Positions 29,198 to 38,504 of a stretch of DNA of 64,000 nt are shown here, piece after piece. Position numbers and translations under genes: made by a program. The notes beneath the pieces were generated by a model. That model was not told the origin of the DNA. It did not search any database and was given only the letters and a program-made list of their open reading frames with translations. Source of the stretch: Gemmatimonadota bacterium (GTDB lineage: Bacteria > Gemmatimonadota > Gemmatimonadetes > Gemmatimonadales > GWC2-71-9); NCBI GenBank assembly GCA_031367105.1, contig JANLPG010000095.1:27142-91141 (forward strand). Reading direction: 5' to 3'. Every line of letters begins with the position of its first letter. The first letter of the stretch is position 1.

Positions 29198-30858
29198 CAC
29201 TGCTCTCGCTCCGGGTCCGCGACCTCGCCACGGTCGCCGACGTGACCCTCGAACTTGCCGGTGGCCTCAACGTGCTCACCGGCGAGACCGGGGCAGGGAA
29301 GTCGATGCTGGTCGACGCGATCGCGCTGCTCCTCGGTGATCGCGCCGATCGCGCGGCGGTGCGCCCTGGCGCCGGCAAAGCCACGATCGAGGGTGTCTTC
29401 GACGCGGTGCCATCCGCCACCCGCCAGGCGCTCGAAACCGCGGGCCTTGACGCCGAGGAGTCGCTGATCCTTCGGCGGGAAGTGACCTCGGAAGGGCGGT
29501 CGCGCGCCTGGATCAACGGATCGCCTGCCACGATTGGTGCACTCGCCCGGCTGGGAGAGTCGCTCGTGGATCTGCACGGGCAGCATCAGACAGTCCAGTT
29601 GCTCGAGCCGGCGACACAGCGTGACCTGCTCGATGCCTTCGGCGATTCGCTCCCCGTGGCACGCGCCGTCGCCACGGCATTCGCGGAACTGCAGCTGCTT
29701 CGCCACCAGGCCGATGTGCTGGCAGCTCGGCGAGATGAGGCGCTGCGCCGTGCGGATTGGCTGCGCCACGTCATCACGGACATTGATACCGTGAAACCCC
29801 GCCCCGAGGAGGAGATCGCGCTTGACCGCGAGGTGCGCCGCCTCGGACACGCCAGCACGTTGGGCGAGCACGCCCGCGAGTTGCACGACGCACTCGACGG
29901 CGAGGAGGTCAGTGCCCGTGCCGCAATCGGGCGGGCCGAGCGGGCGCTGAACGCCCTCGAACGGCTCGATGGCACGGTGACGCCGTGGCGGGAGTTGCTC
30001 GACGCGGCCTACGCCCAACTCGACGAACTCGCCCGTGTCGCCGACAGGTACGCCAACGACCTCACCGAGGATCCCGGACGGCTGGATGCCCTCGAGCAGC
30101 GGCGGAATGCACTCGACGCGCTCCGGCAGAAACACGGCTCATCGCTCGAAGCGGTCCTCGCGACACGGGATGCGGCGCGCGCCGAGCTTGAACTGCTGGA
30201 CACCGCGGCATTCGATCTGCGCACCTTCGCGACGCGAATCGTGGCAGCAGAGTCAGCACTGACGCAGCTCGGCGCGGCGCTGACGCTCCGACGCCAACAG
30301 GCCGGTGAGCAGCTCGCCCGCGAAGTCAGTCGGCTACTGCCCCGGCTGGGGCTGGCGGGGGGTGAGCTGAGCGTTGCGCTGGATCCACTCGAGTCGGTCG
30401 GATCGAGTGGCACAGAACAAGTGACACTGATGATTCGATTGAATCGAGGGATGGCTGCGCAACCGCTGGCCCGGGTGGCCTCCGGAGGCGAACTCTCCCG
30501 ACTGATGCTCGCACTCAAGGTCGTGCTCGCGCGGCACGACGCCGTCCCGACGCTGGTCTTCGACGAAATCGATCAGGGAATCGGTGGCGAGGTGGGAGCT
30601 CGCGTCGGAGAGGCACTCAGTCAGATTGCGGCCGGCCATCAGGTCCTGGTGATCACACACCTGCCCCAGATCGCTGCGCGAGCGGACCATCACCTCCGCG
30701 TCGCGAAAGCCACGAGAAGCGGCATTGCGACCAGCGACGTCACGACGCTGCACGGGGAGGATCGGGTGCTGGAACTTGCCAGGATGCTGGGGGACGGAGA
30801 AGACGACGCCGCGCGGCGGCTGGCAGTCTCACTACTCCGCGGCGCGACTACTGGCTGA
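29194..30858 (+). CDS. recN: DNA repair protein RecN
   Basis: 554 aa with N-terminal Walker A GETGAGKSMLVDA, a long coiled coil, a C-terminal SMC signature ASGGELSRLMLAL and Walker B LVFDEIDQGIGG. Confidence 0.94.
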   Translation: MTLLSLRVRDLATVADVTLELAGGLNVLTGETGAGKSMLVDAIALLLGDRADRAAVRPGAGKATIEGVFDAVPSATRQALETAGLDAEESLILRREVTSEGRSRAWINGSPATIGALARLGESLVDLHGQHQTVQLLEPATQRDLLDAFGDSLPVARAVATAFAELQLLRHQADVLAARRDEALRRADWLRHVITDIDTVKPRPEEEIALDREVRRLGHASTLGEHARELHDALDGEEVSARAAIGRAERALNALERLDGTVTPWRELLDAAYAQLDELARVADRYANDLTEDPGRLDALEQRRNALDALRQKHGSSLEAVLATRDAARAELELLDTAAFDLRTFATRIVAAESALTQLGAALTLRRQQAGEQLAREVSRLLPRLGLAGGELSVALDPLESVGSSGTEQVTLMIRLNRGMAAQPLARVASGGELSRLMLALKVVLARHDAVPTLVFDEIDQGIGGEVGARVGEALSQIAAGHQVLVITHLPQIAARADHHLRVAKATRSGIATSDVTTLHGEDRVLELARMLGDGEDDAARRLAVSLLRGATTG

Positions 30859-32416
30859 CGAGTGCCTTGTAGACCCGGAACACCAGCCGGGAGGTCAGTC
30901 GCGCCGGAACCACGCCGCTCCCACTGAAGACCGTGCGCTCAATTGAGAGGCCCGCTTCCACCGGCATCCGCAAGATCCCGTCGCGGTGCCGGCCATCGTG
31001 TACGTAGCTGAAACCCAGTCCGATAATCGTCGCGTCCGACGCGGTCCCCCCATCCAGCAAGTTGGCTGCGGCGCCGGCGACGGGAGTCTGCCCCGTCACG
31101 TACCTCGTCGCATCGGCGCCCCGTCTCCGATATGAGACCAGCCCGGCAAGTGCAAGTCGCGGCGCGACCCGGAAAAACGGTTGCGCGGTGATGGTCAGGA
31201 TATCGCCGGGATCCCGGCGGACGGCGGCACGTCGGTAGGCCGGCACCAGGAGCTGGTCGCGACTCGCCACTCGGGTAAATCGATCCGACGCGAGTTGTAT
31301 CGTATAGCGCCCCTCCGCGCGCAGCCCCAGCCGATGGCGACCGAGTTCCAGTATGCCCGCGACTTCGGCGTCGATCTGCCGGTCGCCCGTGCCTTGGTCA
31401 AGGAGGTATTGCGGGCGAGGCAGCTGACCGGTGCGAAGCCGGCCTACCCCCTGGAGCCAGAGCCCCAACCAGCTTGGATCACCGGCTCGGCCGTGTTGAA
31501 TCAGCTCGGCGGTGATGCCACCTTCCATATCACCCAGCGCGACCAGCGGCTTGTCCTCTGGAGCGAGAACGCCAAAGCCGCTCGGCGAGCCGAGCAGTGC
31601 ATCGAAGCCCGCCGCATTCAGCGGAGCGGATGGCAGGGCGGGGGCGCTGGAAAATCCCGGGATCCCGAGCGACGTAGTAAAGGTGCTTCTCACGCCGGCA
31701 ACGCGCGCGAGCAGTGCGGAGCCGTCGGCACTGCGCTCAGTCGGAAGGACCACGCTCGCCAGTGCGCTGTCGGCGAACAGCGTGTACAGCGTGTTGCGGA
31801 GTAGAGGCGCCTCGGTCAGGGTCTGCTGGGCCAGCGCCTGCGCTGCAGGATTGCTGACATAGTCACCGCGGCTGAATCGGGTGGTCAAGCTGGCGATCGC
31901 TGCATCGAACTCGGTGAAGAAGGCAGTGGTTCGCGCCCGTCCCGCAGGATCGCCGATGTTTGGATCGGCGGGATTGATCCCGACCGTCGCGCCGAGCGGG
32001 TCATAGGTCGTGCGGCGTTGGGTGCGGACCGAAACAATCGGCACCGTCCCGAAGAGCGTGATCCGGCGGGTCAGGCCAAGCGCCAGCCCGATCGTCGCCG
32101 TACCACGCTGGTGCTCGGCGATTGTGGTGAGTCCACCGAGGGCGGTCGGAGCCGCTGGGCGCCCGAGGATCTCGGAGAGGCGCGATTCGAGATCGCCGAG
32201 CAATGGCGTCGTTGTGGACGTCAGCGCCGCAATGGTCAGGGGCGACCCGAGGTCACGCTTGGTTCCATCAATCCACGCGGAGGTGGCGGGGGCGAACGCA
32301 CCGCCGAACTCGATCCGCACGGTACCACGCGGCGCCGTGAGGAGTGGGAGCTGGGCTGTGAGCCGGGTTGTGGGCAACCAGACCAGCAGGAGCAGGAGGG
32401 GGGCTCGGACTCTCAT
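30848..32416 (-). CDS. hypothetical secreted / outer-membrane-like protein
   Basis: Start set at MRVRAPLLLLLVWLPTTRLTAQ (signal-peptide-like). The longer 32527 start would overlap the tRNA. 522 aa, Gly/Thr/Ala/Arg-rich with alternating-hydrophobic stretches in the C-terminal third (beta-barrel-like). No motif recognised. Confidence 0.6.
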   Translation of the reverse strand: MRVRAPLLLLLVWLPTTRLTAQLPLLTAPRGTVRIEFGGAFAPATSAWIDGTKRDLGSPLTIAALTSTTTPLLGDLESRLSEILGRPAAPTALGGLTTIAEHQRGTATIGLALGLTRRITLFGTVPIVSVRTQRRTTYDPLGATVGINPADPNIGDPAGRARTTAFFTEFDAAIASLTTRFSRGDYVSNPAAQALAQQTLTEAPLLRNTLYTLFADSALASVVLPTERSADGSALLARVAGVRSTFTTSLGIPGFSSAPALPSAPLNAAGFDALLGSPSGFGVLAPEDKPLVALGDMEGGITAELIQHGRAGDPSWLGLWLQGVGRLRTGQLPRPQYLLDQGTGDRQIDAEVAGILELGRHRLGLRAEGRYTIQLASDRFTRVASRDQLLVPAYRRAAVRRDPGDILTITAQPFFRVAPRLALAGLVSYRRRGADATRYVTGQTPVAGAAANLLDGGTASDATIIGLGFSYVHDGRHRDGILRMPVEAGLSIERTVFSGSGVVPARLTSRLVFRVYKALVSQ

Positions 32417-32558: not shown

Positions 32559-32587
32559 CTTGACTACCCATTGTGGAGAATCGACGA

Positions 32588-33040
32588 ATGCAAAACGCCC
32601 GGCGTGGTTTTACGCTCATCGAGCTGCTGACCGTTATCACGATCATCGGGATTCTGGCGACCGTCGGCTTCCCCAAGCTGCAGGCCACCAAAATGAAGGC
32701 GACCCGCGCCTCGATGGTGTCGGATCTGCGGAATCTGGTCAGTGCGCAGGAAGCGTTCTTCTCGACCTACGCCGACTACGCCGGCTCGATCACATCGGGT
32801 GCAGACGTCGCCGGGTCGCCCTCCAGCTCCGGCGCGCTCGCTTTTCGGCTTAGCCCAGGCAACGCGATCGTCCTTTCCCGGATGAGCCCGAACAGCGCGA
32901 CCGGCCCGGGATGGACTGCGACGATCACCAACCCCGCGATCGCAAATACCACGTTCACGACGTGTGGGATTTTTATCGGATCGATCACCTATTCGCCGAA
33001 TGCTGCCGTCACGCGCGAAGGGACGCCGACCTGCTACTGA
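32588..33040 (+). CDS. type IV pilin (prepilin-type N-terminal cleavage/methylation domain)
   Basis: MQNARRG|FTLIELLTVITIIGILATV is a class III signal peptide with Gly-1, Phe+1 and Glu+5. C-terminal Cys pair TCGIF...PTCY (D-region). SD GGAGA lies 8 nt before ATG 32588, and the track start 32573 is a GTG inside the SD. Confidence 0.9.
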   Translation: MQNARRGFTLIELLTVITIIGILATVGFPKLQATKMKATRASMVSDLRNLVSAQEAFFSTYADYAGSITSGADVAGSPSSSGALAFRLSPGNAIVLSRMSPNSATGPGWTATITNPAIANTTFTTCGIFIGSITYSPNAAVTREGTPTCY

Positions 33041-33540
33041 ACCGGCGAAGGAATCTGTCGCAACGCGTCGCCGAGAAACGAGTCGGCCGACATACGGTCG
33101 CTGAGTCGGAGTACGGTGCCATCGACGGATCCGGAAATCTGGTAGTCGGCTTCGGTGGTACGCTCGTACTGGACACCCGTTTCCACGGCGCCTGCCTCAC
33201 GCAGCGACTCCGGCAGCCTGCCCTTCGCCGCCCGGTAAGCCTCGACGCGTCCGCGTTGCAAAAAGATGGCGTAGCGCATCCTGGCTTCCCGCTGAACCGC
33301 CGAGAGGGTGATGCGCGGAGGTCCGCCGAAGAGGAACGCCGGACGCGCAACCCAGGCATAGCCGATGAAGCCCCACGCGGCGACGATGAAAAGCAACAGT
33401 CCGGGCTGGTACATGATGTGGGCCTCCCGCTCCTTCCTGGCCGCCCGGATGTGGCGGAGCTCGCCCTCGGACACCCGCTGGGAATCCAGCACGTCCCGGA
33501 GTGCCTCGCCCAGCTCGTGCTGTGGCTTTCGGTCGGTCAT
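33034..33540 (-). CDS. hypothetical bitopic membrane protein, paralog A
   Basis: 168 aa: about 45-aa charged N-terminus, one TM (PGLLLFIVAAWGFIGYAWV), about 100-aa C-terminal domain. Clear paralog of 34047..34571 (REARMRYAIFL...RLPESLREAG...SADSFLGDAL). Confidence 0.65.
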   Translation of the reverse strand: MTDRKPQHELGEALRDVLDSQRVSEGELRHIRAARKEREAHIMYQPGLLLFIVAAWGFIGYAWVARPAFLFGGPPRITLSAVQREARMRYAIFLQRGRVEAYRAAKGRLPESLREAGAVETGVQYERTTEADYQISGSVDGTVLRLSDRMSADSFLGDALRQIPSPVQ

Positions 33541-33605
33541 CGCTCAGCGCCTCGATGGTTTCAATGGTTGCATTTGGTCCCGTCTCGGAGCGAGAATCCC
33601 GCCTG

Positions 33606-34043
33606 ATGACTTCCGCCCGCTCACTACCCACTTCGGTCGCACCGCCGTGGCAGTTCACGCTGATGAGCCTGACCGGCCTCGGTGCCGCCGCCATCCTCTG
33701 GATGCTGATCTCCAGCGGGATTGCCCGGCACAATGATACCCGTCGACACGCCGCCCTCCGGACGGAACTGCAGCGCCTCGACCAGGCCCAGTCGAGCGTT
33801 TACGCTAACAATGGGCGATTCGCAGCCTCACTCTCGACGGCGTCGGACGGAACCGGGCTTGGCTTCACGCCGACCTCCGGGTTGCAGATCGATTTTGAGG
33901 CGCTCTCGACCGAGGCGTGGCGCGCCACGGTTCGAGATACCACGCTGACGAGCGGACCCGCCAGCTGTGGAATTTTCCGAGGACCACCCGAGGCCTCCCC
34001 GCACCGCTCGGTGGTGATACCCGGGGTGATCGGCTGCTGGTGA
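33606..34043 (+). CDS. divergent pilin-like protein lacking canonical prepilin cleavage motif
   Basis: 145 aa. ...PPWQFTLMSLTGLGAAAILWMLI resembles G|FTLIEL but has Trp-Gln in place of Gly-1 and Ser at +5. The globular part aligns with the 32588 pilin, including SCGIFRGP...IGCW versus TCGIFIGS...PTCY. Confidence 0.6.
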   Translation: MTSARSLPTSVAPPWQFTLMSLTGLGAAAILWMLISSGIARHNDTRRHAALRTELQRLDQAQSSVYANNGRFAASLSTASDGTGLGFTPTSGLQIDFEALSTEAWRATVRDTTLTSGPASCGIFRGPPEASPHRSVVIPGVIGCW

Positions 34044-34046
34044 GGC

Positions 34047-34571
34047 TCACGGTCGTCGCAACTCGCTGAGGCTTTCCCCCAGAAAGGCATCCGCCGATCC
34101 GCTGCTCGTCAGCTTGACGCCCACCGCGTCCTCGCTGCCCACTAATTCGTAGCTTCGCTCGCCCGTCACGATCAGTTGAATCGTTGGATCGCCCACACCC
34201 GCTTCGCCCAGGAACGATGGCAAGCGCTTGTTCGTCGTCAGGAAGCGCCGCACCGCGCCATCGGCCAGCCAGACGCCGTAGCGGAGCGAGGCCTCCCGCC
34301 GGGCGAGGGGGGACGACCACGGCTGCCCGACGGGGGCCGAGACGAAGCCGGGCCGGAACACGACCAGCGCCGCGACGGTCAGCCAGGTGAGCAGCGCGGC
34401 CGCGAGCCACCCGCCAGAGGCGAAGGCAGGCGCATCGGGAGTCAGTGCACCGGCGCGCTGTGCTTCGATGTGTTCGAGTACCTCGGCCTGGATCTGCTCC
34501 AGCAGTCCCGCAGAGTCCGGGAGCGATCGTGGCCCCCCGAACGCAGGGCCGACACTCGAACCGCTAGCCAT
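34047..34571 (-). CDS. hypothetical bitopic membrane protein, paralog B
   Basis: 174 aa with the same architecture as paralog A (TM WLAAALLTWLTVAALVVF; REASLRYGVWL...RLPSFLGEAG...SADAFLGESL). 8-nt overlap (ATGGCTAG) with the upstream receiver gene. Confidence 0.65.
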   Translation of the reverse strand: MASGSSVGPAFGGPRSLPDSAGLLEQIQAEVLEHIEAQRAGALTPDAPAFASGGWLAAALLTWLTVAALVVFRPGFVSAPVGQPWSSPLARREASLRYGVWLADGAVRRFLTTNKRLPSFLGEAGVGDPTIQLIVTGERSYELVGSEDAVGVKLTSSGSADAFLGESLSELRRP

Positions 34572-34944
34572 CCTGGGGCGACTCGCCGGCCAGCGCCTTC
34601 AGCACCTGCTCCGGGAAGAGCCGGATGTCGATCGGCTTCGTGATATAGCCATCGAAACCCGCCGATATCGCCTTCTCGCGGTCACCCGACATTGCGTGCG
34701 CGGTGAGGGCGATGACGCGGAGATCCCGGAAGTCCGAGGCACGGATTTCGGCAAGGAGGGCAAAGCCGTCCTTCCCAGGCATCTGGATATCCATCAGGAC
34801 GAGCTCTGGCCGTCCTGCGGCGAGCGTGGCGAACAATTCCTCGCCCCCAGGCAAGCCGTGTACCTCGTGGCCTTTCAGGGTCAGCACGGTCCGGAAGAGC
34901 TTCATATTGTCGGGGCTGTCCTCGACGATCAGGATCTTGGCCAC
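34564..34944 (-). CDS. single-domain response regulator (CheY-like receiver)
   Basis: 126 aa: ILIVEDSPDN, phospho-acceptor context LVLMDIQMPGKDG, ALTAHAM and GYITKP. GTG start 2 nt after the upstream ATPase stop. Confidence 0.9.
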   Translation of the reverse strand: MAKILIVEDSPDNMKLFRTVLTLKGHEVHGLPGGEELFATLAAGRPELVLMDIQMPGKDGFALLAEIRASDFRDLRVIALTAHAMSGDREKAISAGFDGYITKPIDIRLFPEQVLKALAGESPQDG

Positions 34945-34946
34945 GG

Positions 34947-37109
34947 CTATTCAATCCTTGTGCGCTTGAGAACGGCCTTGACTCGGGCCACGAGCGAACG
35001 GGGCTGGACCGGCTTGGTCAGATAGTCCTGGGCGCCCAGGTCGAGTGCCTGACTTTCGGTGTCATCGGTCCTGGCGGTGAGCATGATCACCGGCAGTCCG
35101 GCGGTCGAAACCTGCGCCCGCAACTCCTCCAGCACGCCAAGCCCGGTCAGGCGAGGCATATCGTGGTCGAGCAGGACCAGGTCGATCCCGTGGGTATCGA
35201 TGGCCTCGAGGGTTTCGAGACCGTCGGTTGCTTCGAGCACCTTGAAGCCCTCGCGCTCCAACACGGTGCGCAGCAGCCGGCGCATCTGTGCATCATCGTC
35301 CGCCAGCAGGATGGTCGCTCCGGCACCGTCGGGGGAGGTGGTCGTCGGTTCGCGTGCGGGAGGCCGCTTGGTCGTCGCCATCGCCGCCTCGGTCGGTGTC
35401 TGTTCCACGGCGCCGCGGTCGGTGTCTCCCAGCACTCGCCGCACTTCCTCGAAGGACGTCACGCCCAGCCAGAACCGGACCAACCCGCTCTGCCAGAGGG
35501 TGCGCATACCGAACGGGACGGCGGCCTCGAGGATCTGAGCCTGCGGTGCGCCCGTCTCGATCAATCTCCCCACCGTTCCTTCGACGGGCAGTAACTCCAT
35601 CACCGCGACGCGCCCCTTGAATCCGCTGCCGCTGCAGCTTTTGCACCCCGGGGCCCGGCGCGGCGCAAACTTTCCTGCATAGCTCGCAGGAGGCCGCCCC
35701 GCCTCCGGGATCTCTTCGAACGGCATTGGTTCCGCGCACCGCTCGCACAGCCGGCGGACGAGACGCTGGGCCAGAATCCCCTTGAGCACGGTGCCGATCT
35801 TGAACGAATCCACTCCCATATCGCGCAGGCGCACAATGGCAGAGACGGCATCGTTCGTGTGCAACGTCGAGAAGACAAAATGTCCGGTGAGTCCCGCCTG
35901 AATCGCGATGGTCGCAGTCTCCCCATCGCGGATCTCGCCGACGAGCACGATGTCGGGATCCTGGCGCAGCACCGATCGAAGGGCAGTGGCAAAGGTGAAT
36001 CCCTGCGCTTCGTTCACCTGCATCTGTGAGATGCCATCGACATCGTACTCCACCGGATCTTCGACGGTCACGATGTTGACGCGACCGGTCTTCAGATGAT
36101 TCAGGACGGCGTAGAGCGTGGTCGTCTTGCCGGATCCGGTTGGGCCGGTGACCAACAGCATTCCTTCGCGGTGCCCCAGCATCCGCATCAGCACTTCTTC
36201 TTCGTCGGCGGGGAGCAGGAGCTCGGGGATGGACGCCCGGAGGTTCGACTTGCTCAGGATACGGATCACCAGCTTCTCGCCTCGACGTGCCACGGGCGCG
36301 GTGGCGACGCGAAGATCGACCTGTTGTCCGTCCACCCGGGCGCTACTGCGGCCGTCCTGGGGAGTCATCGAGTTGGTGACATCGAGCCCGGACACGATCT
36401 TGACACGGCGCACGAGCGAGGGGCCTGCCGCCTCGGGCAGTCGCATGACTTCACGGAGGATGCCGTCGACGCGGTACCGCACGACCACGTGGGGACCCTC
36501 GATTTCTGCGTGTACGTCGCTGGCGCCGATCCGCACCGCATCAGCAATCATTGCGTCCACCAGTTTTGACATCGGGGCATCCAGCGCCGGATCACGATCC
36601 TCCACGTCGAGCTGGAGATCGAGTTCGATCGAGGCCGGAGCGAGCCCTTGCAACAGCCGGTTGATGCTGTTTTCCGGTCGGTAGTATTCATCCAGCTTCT
36701 CGGCGATCGCGCTGGGCGAGGCGACCTCGAGCAGGACGTCTCGACCGGTGAGGAAGCCAAGGCTCTGCTCGGCGGAGAGGTCGTTGGGGTCGGCGGTCGC
36801 GAGGCGGACGCTACGCTCATCGAGGGCGAGCGGCACGACGTGGTATTTTCGAGCAGCTGCCTCGGGGAGTACCGCGGTCGCACGCGCATCGATGGTGGCG
36901 AGGTCCGCAATCGGCAGCCGGAACCGGGTGGCGAGCAGCCGGATGATGTCGCTGTCGGTTGTGAACCCCGCATCGACCACGCTCGACCAGAGCCTCCCCT
37001 TGCCGCCAGACTTGAGGGTCGCAACCTGCGCTTCCGGCAACAACCCACCTTCGATCAGGTGGGCTGCCAGCCAGGCGTCGGGGAACGTCGTGGACGCAGG
37101 TGAGGTCAT
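34947..37109 (-). CDS. PilB/GspE-family secretion ATPase with N-terminal T2SSE_N-like domain and C-terminal receiver (REC) domain
   Basis: Start at MTSPASTTF (ATG 37109). Walker A GPTGSGKTTTLY, Asp box VEDPVEY, Walker B DPDIVLVGEIRD, His box STLHTNDA and tetra-Cys CERC...CKSC. After a Thr/Pro linker, REC is ILLADDD...LVLLDHDMPRLTG...MLTARTD...LTKP (about 34950-35321). Confidence 0.88.
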   Translation of the reverse strand: MTSPASTTFPDAWLAAHLIEGGLLPEAQVATLKSGGKGRLWSSVVDAGFTTDSDIIRLLATRFRLPIADLATIDARATAVLPEAAARKYHVVPLALDERSVRLATADPNDLSAEQSLGFLTGRDVLLEVASPSAIAEKLDEYYRPENSINRLLQGLAPASIELDLQLDVEDRDPALDAPMSKLVDAMIADAVRIGASDVHAEIEGPHVVVRYRVDGILREVMRLPEAAGPSLVRRVKIVSGLDVTNSMTPQDGRSSARVDGQQVDLRVATAPVARRGEKLVIRILSKSNLRASIPELLLPADEEEVLMRMLGHREGMLLVTGPTGSGKTTTLYAVLNHLKTGRVNIVTVEDPVEYDVDGISQMQVNEAQGFTFATALRSVLRQDPDIVLVGEIRDGETATIAIQAGLTGHFVFSTLHTNDAVSAIVRLRDMGVDSFKIGTVLKGILAQRLVRRLCERCAEPMPFEEIPEAGRPPASYAGKFAPRRAPGCKSCSGSGFKGRVAVMELLPVEGTVGRLIETGAPQAQILEAAVPFGMRTLWQSGLVRFWLGVTSFEEVRRVLGDTDRGAVEQTPTEAAMATTKRPPAREPTTTSPDGAGATILLADDDAQMRRLLRTVLEREGFKVLEATDGLETLEAIDTHGIDLVLLDHDMPRLTGLGVLEELRAQVSTAGLPVIMLTARTDDTESQALDLGAQDYLTKPVQPRSLVARVKAVLKRTRIE

Positions 37110-37145
37110 CGGGGTCCGTGGGCAGCAGTGGCTCGGGGGCCGTGG

Positions 37146-37174
37146 TTGTTCACCACGTCGGGGAAAGATACGAT
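37146..37174 (+). promoter_or_regulatory. candidate sigma70-type promoter for aroA-cmk(-rpsA)
   Basis: TTGTTC (37146-37151), 17-nt spacer, TACGAT (37169-37174), in the divergent region between the ATPase gene and aroA. Confidence 0.3.
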
Positions 37175-37226
37175 TCCGTGGCTCGATTTCACCCCTGTCG
37201 CCCCCAGTCGGAGTTCGATTCCCTTC

Positions 37227-38504
37227 ATGGCCCTTCGAGAACGTGTCGCCGGAACCCACCGAGTCCCCGGCGACAAGAGCATCACCCACCGGGCCCTGAT
37301 GCTCGCGGCCCTTGCCCCGGGGACCTCCCGGCTGCGGGGTGCCCTGGCCTCACTCGACGCCCGATCCACTGCTCGAGTGTTGCGCCAGCTCGGGGCAGGG
37401 ATCTCCCCCCTTCGCGAGGGGGCAGTCATCTCGGTGGCGGGGAAGCGGCGCTTCGCCGCGCCAGGGCACAGCCTCGACTGCGGCAATTCCGGGACCACGA
37501 CGCGCCTCCTCCTTGGCCTCCTCGCCGGCCACCCCTTTCTCGCCCGGCTGACGGGTGATGCCTCGCTTCGTCGCCGGCCGATGCGCCGAGTGACAACGGC
37601 CCTCCGAGCGATGGGTGCGAAAATCGACGATGGCGGCCGCGACGGCCTTCCTCTGGCAATCATCGGCGGCAAACTGCGTCCGCTGGACTGGCAGATGGAA
37701 GTGCCGTCCGCGCAGATCAAGAGTGCGTTGCTGCTGGCCGGCCTGGCCGGTGGCGTGCCCGTGCTGCTGCGGGAGGGAGCCGCAACCCGAGACCACACCG
37801 AACGGCTCCTGCGACACTTTGGCTTCGAGGTGGCGTCGCGCGACGGTGTCCTGCGCTTCGCCCCAACCGGGCGACTGGTGCCCTTTGAGCTTGATGTCCC
37901 GGGCGACCCTTCCTCGGCCGCCTTCCTCCTCGCTGCGGCCTTGCTGGCTAGTGAGGGCGAGATCCGAGTGGCAGCTGTCGGACTGAACCCGAGCCGGACC
38001 GGATTTCTGGAAGTACTCCGCCAGATGGGGGCAATCATTACGGTCGAGGGGACTCATTCGCCATTCGGGGAAGCTGTGGGTGATCTTGTGACCAAACCGG
38101 CCCGGTTGCGCTCTGTGGATGTTCCGGCCCGAGCGATTCCCGGGGTGATCGATGAAATTCCGGTGCTCGCTTGCCTTGCGGCGCGGGCGGAAGGAGTGAG
38201 TCGCTTTCGCTCGGTCCAGGAGCTGCGGGTCAAGGAGAGCGATCGCCTCACCCAGATTGCGCGCAATCTGCAAGCGATCGGCGTCGTGGCTGCCATCGAG
38301 GGGGACGACCTGCTGGTCACCGGAACCGATGCACCACTCGCTGGGCGCGTCGTCACCGAGGGAGATCATCGGATTGCGATGGCCTTCACGGTCCTCGGAT
38401 CCTCCGGGCGCGCACGCCTCCGGATCGACGACCCTGACTGCGCCGCCGTCTCGTTCCCGGGGTTTTCCGGTGCACTTCGACGGTTGTTTGTGGCCGCGCG
38501 ATGA
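37227..38504 (+). CDS. aroA: 3-phosphoshikimate 1-carboxyvinyltransferase (EPSP synthase)
   Basis: MALRERVAGTHRVPGDKSITHRALMLAALA...LDCGNSGTTTRLLLGLLA...KESDRL...DHRIAMAF. The start is taken at the internal ATG that gives a canonical N-terminus. Confidence 0.93.
   Translation: MALRERVAGTHRVPGDKSITHRALMLAALAPGTSRLRGALASLDARSTARVLRQLGAGISPLREGAVISVAGKRRFAAPGHSLDCGNSGTTTRLLLGLLAGHPFLARLTGDASLRRRPMRRVTTALRAMGAKIDDGGRDGLPLAIIGGKLRPLDWQMEVPSAQIKSALLLAGLAGGVPVLLREGAATRDHTERLLRHFGFEVASRDGVLRFAPTGRLVPFELDVPGDPSSAAFLLAAALLASEGEIRVAAVGLNPSRTGFLEVLRQMGAIITVEGTHSPFGEAVGDLVTKPARLRSVDVPARAIPGVIDEIPVLACLAARAEGVSRFRSVQELRVKESDRLTQIARNLQAIGVVAAIEGDDLLVTGTDAPLAGRVVTEGDHRIAMAFTVLGSSGRARLRIDDPDCAAVSFPGFSGALRRLFVAAR

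What the first reader, a model, noticed from the sequence alone, without database searches (positions are those of the whole stretch)
34564..37109. PilB/GspE-type extension ATPase fused to a C-terminal receiver domain and coupled to a stand-alone CheY-like gene
The 720-aa ATPase has all GspE/PilB hallmarks (T2SSE_N-like N-domain, Walker A/B, Asp and His boxes, tetra-Cys zinc motif). After a Thr/Pro-rich linker it carries a complete REC domain with intact acidic pocket, phospho-acceptor Asp (LLDHDMP), Thr (MLTA) and Lys (TKP). Two nt downstream starts a separate 126-aa receiver, whose stop overlaps the start of bitopic paralog B by 8 nt. Two receivers and no histidine kinase in the locus imply that phosphotransfer from an unlinked kinase or chemosensory system gates the motor ATPase directly. 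That wiring is not a feature of classical T4P/T2SS ATPases. The N-domain segment WLAAHLIEGGLLPEAQVATL loosely resembles the MshEN c-di-GMP-binding motif but lacks its leading Arg and Gly.
Basis: partly seen in the sequence, partly recalled or inferred. Interest (0 to 1): 0.6.

Follow-up and report, generated by a model that had tools for sequence, protein, structure and literature searches.

The report
Pilus motor ATPase with built-in receiver
This uncultured Gemmatimonadota bacterium has a PilB-type pilus/secretion motor ATPase with a phosphorylation-receiver domain fused to its tail and a second free receiver gene beside it; the design is conserved and found in several phyla, and I found no study of it, so the motor itself probably acts as the output of a two-component signalling pathway.

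Summary
Window 34947-37109 (-) encodes a 720-aa protein with MshEN/N1, T2SSE ATPase and Response_reg domains. A 126-aa stand-alone receiver starts 2 nt downstream, and its end overlaps the next gene by 8 nt.

The fusion is not an artefact:
- 117 full-length homologues (59-100% identity) keep every ATPase motif and the receiver's Asp/Asp/Asp/Thr/Lys set.
- 14 of 14 orthologous loci in other Gemmatimonadota sit beside aroA-cmk-rpsA, and 13 have the free receiver directly downstream. The locus is therefore an old, fixed feature, not an island.
- The genome has a second receiver-tailed paralogue.
- It also has a canonical PilB with a perfect c-di-GMP (MshEN) motif. Both fused copies lack that motif.

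At least 112 clusters at 50% identity share the architecture, including members labelled Elusimicrobia, WOR-3, Omnitrophota and Actinomycetota. In 7 of the 8 loci outside Gemmatimonadota that I annotated, the gene lies beside a histidine kinase, an Hpt protein, free receivers or chemosensory genes; the eighth follows flagellar filament genes. None lies beside pilC or pilM.

Best reading: a response regulator whose output is a PilB-like hexameric ATPase. The direction of control and the filament it serves are inferred.

I found no experimental study. This scan has already noted the family in at least 39 other genomes. Verdict: new variant of a known kind.

The parts
34947..37109 (-). PilB/GspE-like ATPase with C-terminal receiver (720 aa plus stop codon)
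   Evidence: Pfam gives MshEN + T2SSE + Response_reg. The best solved relatives are Geobacter PilB 5zfr (E 9e-118) and 5tsg. 117 homologues share the architecture.
36939..37079 (-). Degenerate MshEN_N region (residues 11-57). The two RLG c-di-GMP motifs are replaced by W-L-A and R-L-W, and motif I is 3-4 residues shorter.
   Evidence: Alignment and family consensus. Motif definition from PMC7288161. No regex match here, against 2 in the genome's canonical PilB.
36672..36923 (-). N1 / MshEN_C subdomain (residues 63-146)
   Evidence: Pfam PF05157, E 1.4e-17.
35436..36581 (-). T2SSE ATPase core (residues 177-558) with Walker A/B, Asp box, His box and tetracysteine motif
   Evidence: Pfam PF00437, E 1e-118. 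Motif conservation in 117 of 117 homologues.
35313..35435 (-). Thr/Pro/Ala-rich linker (residues 559-599); its length varies across the family
   Evidence: Translation. The gap between the ATPase-core and receiver matches ranges from about 10 to over 260 residues among cluster representatives.
34977..35312 (-). Receiver (REC) domain, residues 600-711: D605/D606, phospho-acceptor D648, T678, K699
   Evidence: Pfam PF00072, 104.7 bits. Best NCBIfam and PDB matches are OmpR/PhoB-family receivers. The five residues are kept in at least 116 of 117 homologues.
34564..34944 (-). Stand-alone receiver (126 aa; E8/D9, D52, T81, K103), translationally coupled on both sides
   Evidence: Pfam REC, E 8.7e-27. 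Best NCBIfam matches are receivers of hybrid kinases HrmK, BarA, TorS and ArcB. An orthologue lies directly downstream of the ATPase in 13 of 14 other Gemmatimonadota loci.
34047..34571 (-). Single-pass membrane protein B (174 aa), function unknown
   Evidence: 32% identical to paralogue A, E 4e-17. No Pfam or NCBIfam hit. A homologue lies downstream in 11 of 14 related loci.
33606..34043 (+). Pilin-like gene without the prepilin-peptidase signature (reads ...PPWQFTLMSL)
   Evidence: 26% identical to the neighbouring pilin, E 5e-9. Translation.
33034..33540 (-). Single-pass membrane protein A (168 aa): cytoplasmic helix, one TM helix, periplasmic helix plus 3-strand sheet
   Evidence: AF2 model, pLDDT about 90 over residues 81-160. 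Foldseek finds no significant match; the best are pilins at E 0.36. Homologues found only in Gemmatimonadota.
32573..33040 (+). Type IV pilin with canonical RRG|FTLIEL signal
   Evidence: Pfam N_methyl, E 2.8e-8; NCBIfam IV_pilin_GFxxxE.
30848..32416 (-). Outer-membrane beta-barrel (522 aa) resembling the FapF / COG4313 channels, with a helical insert. Linked to the locus only in the closer relatives.
   Evidence: AF2 pLDDT 92.4. Foldseek 5o67 E 2e-10 and 4rl8 E 1.9e-9. Synteny in L011, L012 and L093-L096.

Best explanation
The 720-aa protein is a response regulator whose output domain is a catalytically competent PilB-like hexameric ATPase.

Proposed mechanism:
- A kinase or phosphorelay encoded elsewhere in the genome phosphorylates D648 of the C-terminal receiver.
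- The phosphorylated receiver, tethered by a flexible linker, changes the activity, ring assembly or platform engagement of the ATPase.
- The adjacent 126-aa receiver, which resembles the receivers of hybrid kinases, belongs to the same pathway, either as a relay step or as a competing phosphate sink.
- The ATPase most likely works with the genome's shared type IVa pilus machinery to assemble the pilin(s) encoded beside it.
- Phosphorylation takes the place of the c-di-GMP input that the canonical PilB of the same genome still has.

Shown here: the domain architecture, intact catalytic and phospho-acceptor residues, conservation, synteny, and kinase or Hpt neighbours in relatives.

Inferred: that phosphotransfer occurs, the direction of control, the role of the free receiver, and the filament that is served.
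For: Architecture and residues:
- Domain architecture and intact motifs.
- The receiver's five signature residues are invariant in at least 116 of 117 homologues, which argues for real phosphochemistry rather than a pseudo-receiver.

Size and conservation of the family:
- The best 120 word-index hits nearly all have the same architecture.
- 112 of the 150 best 50%-identity cluster representatives are ATPase-REC.
- At least 43 of 201 Gemmatimonadota genomes have a match covering the receiver.
- The gene pair ATPase-REC + free REC is conserved in 13 of 14 orthologous loci. The same pairing recurs in unrelated lineages: L117 has a free REC 29 nt downstream, and L118 has two free RECs upstream.

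Signalling partners next to distant members:
- PAS-HisKA-HATPase kinase 3 nt downstream and a pilin upstream in Omnitrophota L017.
- CheA-P1-like Hpt 3 nt downstream in Elusimicrobia L113.
- REC-Hpt-REC and a hybrid kinase in L117.
- HisKA and hybrid kinases in WOR-3 L114.
- PAS kinase upstream in L115.
- MCP and CheB in L118.

What this genome supplies:
- A full type IVa kit for a motor to plug into: pilB-pilT-pilC, a second pilT-pilC, pilM and a secretin on one contig, and pilD.
- Possible phosphodonors: at least 8 hybrid kinases, 2 non-CheA Hpt domains and one CheA cluster.

Precedent for receivers acting on PilB in trans:
- Only phosphorylated PixG binds PilB1, and PixH counteracts it (PMC11181946).
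- DrdR binds PilB and PilT and raises their ATPase activity (PMC13507683).

The canonical PilB of this genome has two perfect MshEN motifs and both fused paralogues have none.
Against: - There is no pilC/gspF, pilM-like or secretin gene in this locus or in any of the 9 lineage loci I examined. A role as a filament motor therefore rests on homology and on neighbouring pilins in only two lineages.
- The NCBIfam scores (PilB 490, GspE 486) are below both equivalog cut-offs of 675.65 and 630.25, so the protein is neither a standard PilB nor a standard GspE.
- No kinase could be assigned.
- Loss of the MshEN motif is weak evidence for an input swap, because 68 of 101 receiver-less PilBs in my sample also lack it.
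- The clade that unites the fused ATPases is recovered by two tree methods but has low support in one (FastTree 0.89; IQ-TREE SH-aLRT 13).
Confidence: 0.65

Rival explanations
1. The ATPase is no longer a filament motor. It would be a signalling ATPase: a receiver-controlled nucleotide switch that regulates another process such as matrix production, flagellar motility or metabolism, without assembling pilins.
For: - It is orphaned from pilC and pilM in every locus I examined.
- Neighbours are often housekeeping or signalling genes: aroA-cmk here, hisC for the paralogue, lysA/dap genes in Elusimicrobia, flagellin-fliD-fliS in L116.
- The same clade carries NUDIX and PAS-GGDEF tails, which are typical of signalling proteins.
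- From my own knowledge, M. xanthus PilB has been reported to signal to exopolysaccharide production.
Against: - All motor motifs, including the zinc-binding tetracysteine and the N1 domain used for machine docking, are strictly conserved.
- Pilin genes are adjacent in Gemmatimonadota and Omnitrophota.
I did not test this.
Confidence: 0.2
2. The locus is a self-contained, minimal T2SS-like or pseudopilus export module. It would consist of the ATPase-REC, the free receiver, the single-pass membrane proteins, the pilins and the FapF-like outer-membrane barrel, and would work independently of the type IVa machine.
For: - These genes are co-located in the closer relatives.
- The barrel resembles the FapF polypeptide secretion channel.
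- The single-pass membrane proteins have a helix-plus-sheet periplasmic domain.
Against: - There is no polytopic platform protein, which every known type IV filament system needs.
- The barrel and the pilins drop out of the locus in more distant orthologous loci, while ATPase-REC + REC stays.
- The fold of the membrane protein has no significant match.
- The barrel similarity is generic for 12-strand channels: COG4313 and FadL also match.
Confidence: 0.1
3. The receiver is a structural, localisation or oligomerisation module that is not phosphorylated, like the FimX or TadZ pseudo-receivers.
For: No kinase gene is linked in Gemmatimonadota. The review PMC11656802 describes a non-phosphorylatable receiver in the pilus regulator FimX.
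Against: - The acidic pocket, acceptor Asp, Thr and Lys are kept in at least 116 of 117 homologues. Pseudo-receivers typically lose them.
- Kinase or Hpt genes are adjacent in other lineages.
Confidence: 0.04
4. The fusion is an assembly or frameshift artefact that joins two genes.
For: None found.
Against: The same uninterrupted reading frame is seen in more than 100 independent assemblies, including contigs of megabase size.
Confidence: 0.01

Closest known systems
Type IVa pilus extension ATPase PilB (Geobacter 5ZFR/5TSG/6OLJ, Myxococcus 3JC8) and T2SS GspE (Vibrio 4PHT/1P9R)
   Same: Shares the N1/MshEN_C domain, the N2 and C-terminal ATPase domains, Walker A/B, Asp and His boxes and the tetracysteine motif. 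Aligns over residues 31-560 with E 9e-118 to 4e-104.
   Different: - Carries a roughly 40-residue linker and a full receiver at the C-terminus.
- Scores below the NCBIfam equivalog cut-offs for both PilB and GspE.
- Not encoded with pilC/pilT or gspF.
- Falls in a separate clade from the genome's canonical PilB.
Free response regulators that act on PilB in trans: Synechocystis PixG/PixH (and PixE), Pseudomonas PilG/PilH, Xanthomonas DrdR and EmvR
   Same: A receiver domain communicates phosphorylation state to the extension ATPase. A pair of receivers, one acting as output and one as antagonist, belongs to one pathway (PMC11181946, PMC13507683, PMC10519157).
   Different: - Here one receiver is covalently fused to the motor, so no docking step is needed.
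- There is no PATAN domain.
- There is no CheA or MCP in the locus.
NtrC/DctD-type receiver-AAA+ activators
   Same: This is an analogy only. In both, a receiver controls the assembly or activity of a ring ATPase in the same polypeptide.
   Different: The ATPase belongs to a different lineage (PilT/VirB11-like secretion ATPase, not a sigma-54 AAA+ protein). The receiver is C-terminal instead of N-terminal. There is no DNA-binding domain.
MshE/PilB-type c-di-GMP-binding ATPases (V. cholerae MshE, 5HTL)
   Same: Same overall N-terminal domain family; the Pfam MshEN model matches the N1 part.
   Different: The tandem RLG...Q binding motifs are not present. The canonical PilB of the same genome does have them.

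Membership tests
T2SSE secretion/pilus ATPases (PF00437; PilB/GspE branch) | Pfam T2SSE match above the gathering score | tested here: met
   396.7 bits against a cut-off of 24.9.
T2SSE secretion/pilus ATPases (PF00437; PilB/GspE branch) | Walker A, Asp box, Walker B and His box intact | tested here: met
   GPTGSGKT, VTVEDPVEY, DPDIVLVGEIRD and TGHFVFSTLHTND are present. The key residues are invariant in 117 of 117 homologues.
T2SSE secretion/pilus ATPases (PF00437; PilB/GspE branch) | Tetracysteine zinc motif of the extension-ATPase (PilB/GspE) type | tested here: met
   C455, C458, C489 and C492 are invariant in 117 of 117 homologues.
PilB equivalog (TIGR02538) / GspE equivalog (TIGR02533) | Score above the curated equivalog cut-off | tested here: not met
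   PilB 490.2 bits against 675.65; GspE 486 bits against 630.25.
Type IV filament extension motor (functional class) | Encoded with, or shown to bind, a PilC/GspF platform protein | tested here: not met
   There is no T2SSF gene in the locus. The two T2SSF genes of the genome are on contigs C178 and C205. Physical interaction cannot be tested with these tools.
Response regulator receiver (PF00072) | Pfam match above the cut-off, for both the fused and the free receiver | tested here: met
   104.7 and 93.9 bits against a cut-off of 30.2.
Response regulator receiver (PF00072) | Acidic pair, phospho-acceptor Asp, Thr/Ser and Lys present | tested here: met
   Fused receiver: D605/D606, D648, T678, K699, kept in at least 116 of 117 homologues. 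Free receiver: E8/D9, D52, T81, K103 (read from the sequence).
Response regulator receiver (PF00072) | Actual phosphorylation by a cognate kinase or Hpt protein | not testable with these tools
   The only evidence is indirect: kinase or Hpt genes adjacent in relatives.
MshEN c-di-GMP receptor | Two 24-residue motifs RLGxx(L)(V/I)xxG(I/F)(L/V)xxxxLxxxLxxQ separated by 5 residues | tested here: not met
   No regex match. The motif positions read W-L-A and R-L-W, and motif I is shortened. The control, canonical PilB on C178, gives 2 matches.
Pil-Chp / Tax1-type chemosensory control of PilB | The receiver pair is encoded with CheA, CheW and an MCP | tested here: not met
   No CheA or MCP lies in the window. 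The single CheA is on contig C44 in a cheW-cheY-cheA-cheC-TPR-DUF4388-Roadblock cluster. Whether it feeds this receiver is unknown.

The most novel reading that the evidence does not exclude
A large, multi-phylum clade of PilB-like motors has become a direct output of two-component and phosphorelay signalling. The motor itself would be the response regulator, and phosphorylation would replace c-di-GMP as its input.

The C-terminus of this clade would act as a general plug-in site for regulatory domains: REC, triple REC, REC-TPR, NUDIX and PAS-GGDEF tails are all seen.

In Gemmatimonadota, two such motors and one c-di-GMP-type PilB would then compete for one pilus machine, giving signal-dependent choice of motor and pilin.
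Probability: 0.4. Interest if true: 0.7.

Novelty: new variant of a known kind. Interest (0 to 1): 0.55.

Why it matters
Control of type IV pilus extension is currently explained by cofactors that bind PilB in trans: PilZ/FimX, c-di-GMP through MshEN, and CheY-like regulators such as PixG and DrdR. A natural covalent fusion of a receiver to the motor acts as a 'Rosetta stone'. It argues that direct receiver-to-PilB communication is ancient and common.

It also offers a simple one-polypeptide system for working out how a phosphorylated receiver changes a PilB hexamer, using ATPase assays and cryo-EM with and without BeF3-.

It marks a large set of orphan PilB-like genes in soil and groundwater phyla as signalling outputs rather than redundant motor copies.

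Tried and rejected
- **Assembly or frameshift artefact:** rejected.
- **Accessory island:** rejected. GC content is flat at 0.64-0.69 across the window, and the gene sits beside aroA-cmk-rpsA in 14 of 14 related genomes.
- **Identity of the single-pass membrane proteins:** no Pfam or NCBIfam hit. The AF2 model gives helix plus 3-strand sheet, but Foldseek finds nothing significant; the best matches are pilins at E 0.36. Left open.
- **Genome-contig scan for taxonomic spread:** Only L014, L015 and L017 were ATPase-REC, and L025 was REC-ATPase.
- **MshEN-motif contrast as evidence for an input swap:** weak, because 68 of 101 receiver-less PilBs also lack the motif.
- **Context of the second paralogue:** the hisC adjacency seen in this genome is not conserved. 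The only recurrent neighbour is a roughly 900-aa DUF5686-like protein upstream.
- **Single origin of the fusion:** both tree methods recover one clade, but it includes 18 receiver-less members, needs 13-15 state changes, and has low support in IQ-TREE. I make no firm claim.
- **Promoter and terminator scan of 33900-37400:** nothing found.
- **GC3 filter for gene calling on contig C44:** unreliable, so I used Pfam instead.
- **Literature:** seven full-text searches and the 2024 review of PilB cofactors gave no description of a receiver-fused PilB. The MshEN paper says only that MshEN co-occurs with REC in some architectures.


Full report
**1. What is there**

The window is part of contig C204 of a 2.67-Mb, 96%-complete Gemmatimonadota metagenome-assembled genome. 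On the minus strand, ORF 34947-37289 contains a 720-aa product that starts at ATG 37109.

- Pfam finds MshEN (residues 63-146), T2SSE (177-558, E 1e-118) and Response_reg (600-711, E 4e-30).
- The closest solved structures are Geobacter PilB (5zfr, 5tsg, 6olj; E about 1e-115 to 1e-118), Myxococcus PilB, Vibrio GspE and Thermus PilF. The C-terminal 120 residues match CpxR, PhoP and PhoB receivers.
- NCBIfam scores PilB at 490 bits and GspE at 486 bits. Both are below their equivalog cut-offs, so this is a PilB/GspE-like ATPase that is neither a standard PilB nor a standard GspE.
- Two nucleotides after its stop codon, a 126-aa stand-alone receiver begins (34564-34944; Pfam E 8.7e-27). Its best NCBIfam matches are the receiver domains of hybrid kinases (HrmK, BarA, TorS, ArcB).
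- The receiver's end overlaps by 8 nt the start of a 174-aa single-pass membrane protein.

**2. The fusion is real and under selection**

- The word-index search returned 120 best hits down to 59% identity. Nearly all have the Pfam string MshEN-T2SSE-Response_reg, and those that carry a taxon in their name are labelled Gemmatimonadota or Gemmatimonadales.
- In an alignment of 117 full-length homologues, Walker A, the Asp box, Walker B, the His box and the four cysteines are invariant.
- In the same alignment the receiver's D605/D606, D648, T678 and K699 are present in 116-117 sequences.

This pattern fits a working phospho-receiver, not a pseudo-receiver or a mis-joined gene.

**3. It is a fixed part of the chromosome, not an island**

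Two loci fetched by protein identity (L011 at 69% identity, L012 at 61%) and twelve more taken from related genomes were compared.

- In 14 of 14 loci the gene lies beside aroA-cmk-rpsA.
- In 13 of 14 the stand-alone receiver orthologue (51-94% identity) is directly downstream. In L011 it is displaced by 1.2 kb.
- In 11 of 14 a homologue of the single-pass membrane protein follows.
- The pilin genes, the tandem duplication of the convergent pilin/membrane-protein cassette and the outer-membrane protein are present only in the closer relatives.
- GC content is flat across the window.

The conserved core is therefore the gene pair ATPase-REC + REC, usually with one single-pass membrane protein.

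**4. The rest of this genome**

There are three PilB/GspE-like genes.

- *Canonical pilB.* Contig C178 carries a canonical pilB (581 aa, no receiver) followed by pilT and pilC. Its N-terminus has two perfect MshEN c-di-GMP motifs with the 5-residue spacer: RLGDLLLAQGLLTREQLAHALHEQ-RTTHQ-RLGFVLVRLGLIDELELTKVLARQ. The motif definition comes from PMC7288161.
- *Second receiver-tailed paralogue.* Contig C190 carries it: about 741 aa, 47% identical, with a complete acidic pocket, acceptor Asp, Ser and Lys. It lies next to hisC-hisB-hisH-hisF. That neighbourhood is not conserved in relatives.
- *Motif loss in the fused copies.* Both have W-L-x and (R/S)-L-W where the RLG motifs should be, and a shortened first motif. 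The W residues are conserved across the family.
- *Pilus machinery.* The genome also has a second pilT-pilC pair, pilM and a secretin on contig C75, and a prepilin peptidase. A complete type IVa machine is therefore available.
- *Possible phosphodonors.* There are about 25 HATPase_c genes, at least 8 of them hybrid kinases, 37 receivers, two non-CheA Hpt domains and a single CheA. The CheA sits in a cheW-cheY-cheA-cheC-TPR-DUF4388(PATAN-like)-Roadblock/LC7 cluster.
- *Distance to a kinase.* No clear histidine kinase lies within about 58 kb of the locus on this contig. The only HATPase_c match inside the window is a weak 36-bit hit in a 151-aa ORF about 24 kb away.

**5. Spread beyond this genome**

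- A full HMMER pass over 1.84 billion cluster representatives, combined with my own ATPase and receiver HMMs, shows that 112 of the best 150 representatives (50% identity clusters) are ATPase-REC. The ranking favours receiver-bearing proteins, so this is a lower bound on diversity, not a frequency.
- Named members come from Elusimicrobia (OGS21113.1) and WOR-3 (HAV91642.1). A genome scan adds Frankiaceae, Mycobacteriales and Omnitrophota.
- Within Gemmatimonadota, at least 43 of 201 sampled genomes have a match that extends through the receiver. Three complete genomes of another genus of the same order do not.
- In trees of 217 and 92 ATPase cores, the receiver-tailed proteins and this genome's two copies fall on one side of a split. 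The canonical PilB of this genome and canonical PilBs of many phyla fall on the other.
- That split has FastTree support of 0.89 but IQ-TREE SH-aLRT support of only 13. The fused side also contains 18 receiver-less members.
- Some of those 18 have other tails: NUDIX (P0170, P0171, Gemmatimonadetes L013) and PAS-GGDEF (P0181). Among the receiver-bearing members, some have three receivers or REC-TPR.
- I therefore describe a clade prone to C-terminal regulatory fusions, without claiming a single origin of the receiver.

**6. Neighbours in distant members point to phosphotransfer**

| Locus | Lineage | Neighbours of ATPase-REC |
|---|---|---|
| L017 | Omnitrophota | pilin upstream; PAS-PAS-HisKA-HATPase kinase 3 nt downstream |
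| L113 | Elusimicrobia | 140-aa protein 3 nt downstream that matches CheA P1 (Hpt) structures 2ld6 and 1tqg at E 5e-6 to 7e-6, though not Pfam Hpt; embedded among lysA and dap genes |
| L117 | not labelled | hybrid kinase, REC-Hpt-REC and REC-HisKA upstream; free receiver 29 nt downstream |
| L114 | WOR-3 | REC and REC-HD_5 upstream; HisKA, NtrC-like and PAS hybrid kinase downstream; then cmk |
| L115 | not labelled | PAS kinase upstream |
| L118 | not labelled | MCP, CheB and two free receivers upstream |
| L116 | not labelled | gene follows fliC-csrA-fliC-fliD-fliS |

None of these loci, nor the Gemmatimonadota loci, contains pilC, pilM or a secretin gene.

**7. Mechanism**

*What is shown:*
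- The ATPase is catalytically intact.
- A phosphorylatable receiver sits on a flexible linker of variable length.
- A conserved partner receiver lies beside it.
- Kinase or Hpt partners lie beside relatives.

*What follows from established knowledge:* receivers with this residue set accept phosphate from His kinases or Hpt proteins, and OmpR/PhoB-like receivers often dimerise on phosphorylation.

*What I infer:*
- Phosphorylation of D648 changes ring assembly, ATP turnover or docking of the motor onto the PilC/PilM platform. This is analogous to receiver control of NtrC-type ring ATPases.
- It is also analogous to the trans-acting cases. Only phospho-PixG binds PilB1 and PixH antagonises it (PMC11181946). 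DrdR raises PilB/PilT ATPase activity (PMC13507683).
- The free receiver resembles hybrid-kinase receivers, so it is either a relay step or a phosphate sink.
- I cannot tell whether phosphorylation activates or inhibits.

The main rival reading is that the protein is a signalling ATPase that no longer assembles a filament. It is kept alive by the constant absence of platform genes and by the signalling or housekeeping neighbourhoods.

**8. Other parts of the locus**

- The two single-pass membrane proteins are paralogues (32% identity), and homologues were found only in Gemmatimonadota.
- The AF2 model has a confident periplasmic helix plus 3-strand sheet but no significant structural match.
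- The second pilin copy is a diverged paralogue without the G|F...E signature.
- The 522-aa exported protein (30848-32416) is predicted with pLDDT 92 as a beta-barrel. It resembles the FapF and COG4313 channels and has a long helical insert.

**9. Novelty**

- Seven full-text searches, the 2024 review of PilB cofactors (which contains neither the word 'receiver' nor 'fused') and the MshEN paper gave no description of a receiver-tailed PilB.
- Database annotators do see the two domains: JGI names some members 'PilB-like protein/CheY-like...'.
- This scan has already flagged the family in at least 39 other genomes. Earlier follow-ups reached similar conclusions. I treat those as leads only.
- One of those notes reports a member in an operon with pilC. 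I did not test it.
- My verdict is an uncharacterised variant of a known kind of machine. It is interesting mainly as a natural fusion that makes receiver-to-PilB control directly testable.

Noticed in passing
G000 contig C190:9543-11762 (-), outside the window: There is a second receiver-tailed PilB-like paralogue (about 741 aa, 47% identical), next to hisC-hisB-hisH-hisF. In relatives it instead follows a roughly 900-aa DUF5686-like protein.
   Followed up: partly
G000 contig C178:8975-10762 (+), outside the window: The canonical PilB of the same genome carries two perfect MshEN c-di-GMP-binding motifs with the 5-residue spacer. It is followed by pilT and pilC.
   Followed up: partly
L013:5977-8265 (+); proteins P0170, P0171, P0181: The same ATPase clade contains PilB-NUDIX fusions (Gemmatimonadetes) and a PilB-PAS-GGDEF fusion (Gemmatimonadota MBI4408787.1). 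Many Gemmatimonadota genomes have 750-800-aa open frames at 46-48% identity whose match to the query stops before the receiver; these may be the NUDIX type.
   Followed up: partly
proteins P0125, P0128-P0131, P0135-P0141 and others: 14 of the 150 best cluster representatives are proteins of about 1000 aa with two complete T2SSE ATPase cores in tandem.
   Followed up: no
window 30848-32416 (-): A 522-aa exported protein with no Pfam hit is predicted with high confidence (pLDDT 92) as an outer-membrane beta-barrel. It resembles the FapF amyloid-secretion channel and the COG4313 channel and has a long helical insert. It lies next to the pilin cassettes in the closer relatives.
   Followed up: partly
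window 32573-34571: A convergent two-gene cassette (a plus-strand pilin facing a minus-strand single-pass membrane protein) is duplicated in tandem. Related genomes carry one to three copies (L094 and L095 have three).
   Followed up: partly
G000 contig C44:49953-56626 (+), outside the window: The only CheA of the genome lies in a cluster cheW-cheY-cheA-cheC-TPR-DUF4388(PATAN-like)-TPR/Roadblock-Roadblock, with no MCP seen nearby. This looks like a polarity or pilus-type module and is a candidate phosphodonor.
   Followed up: partly
L113:8001-10552 (+): In an Elusimicrobia genome the ATPase-REC gene and a CheA-P1-like stand-alone Hpt gene sit inside a lysine biosynthesis array (lysA ... dapF-dapA-dapB). 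Neighbourhoods of amino-acid or nucleotide housekeeping genes recur: aroA-cmk here, hisC for the paralogue, and cmk in WOR-3 L114.
   Followed up: no
L116:1-8151 (+): In one uncultured lineage the ATPase-REC gene overlaps by 4 nt the last gene of a flagellar filament operon (fliC-csrA-fliC-fliD-fliS-unknown).
   Followed up: no
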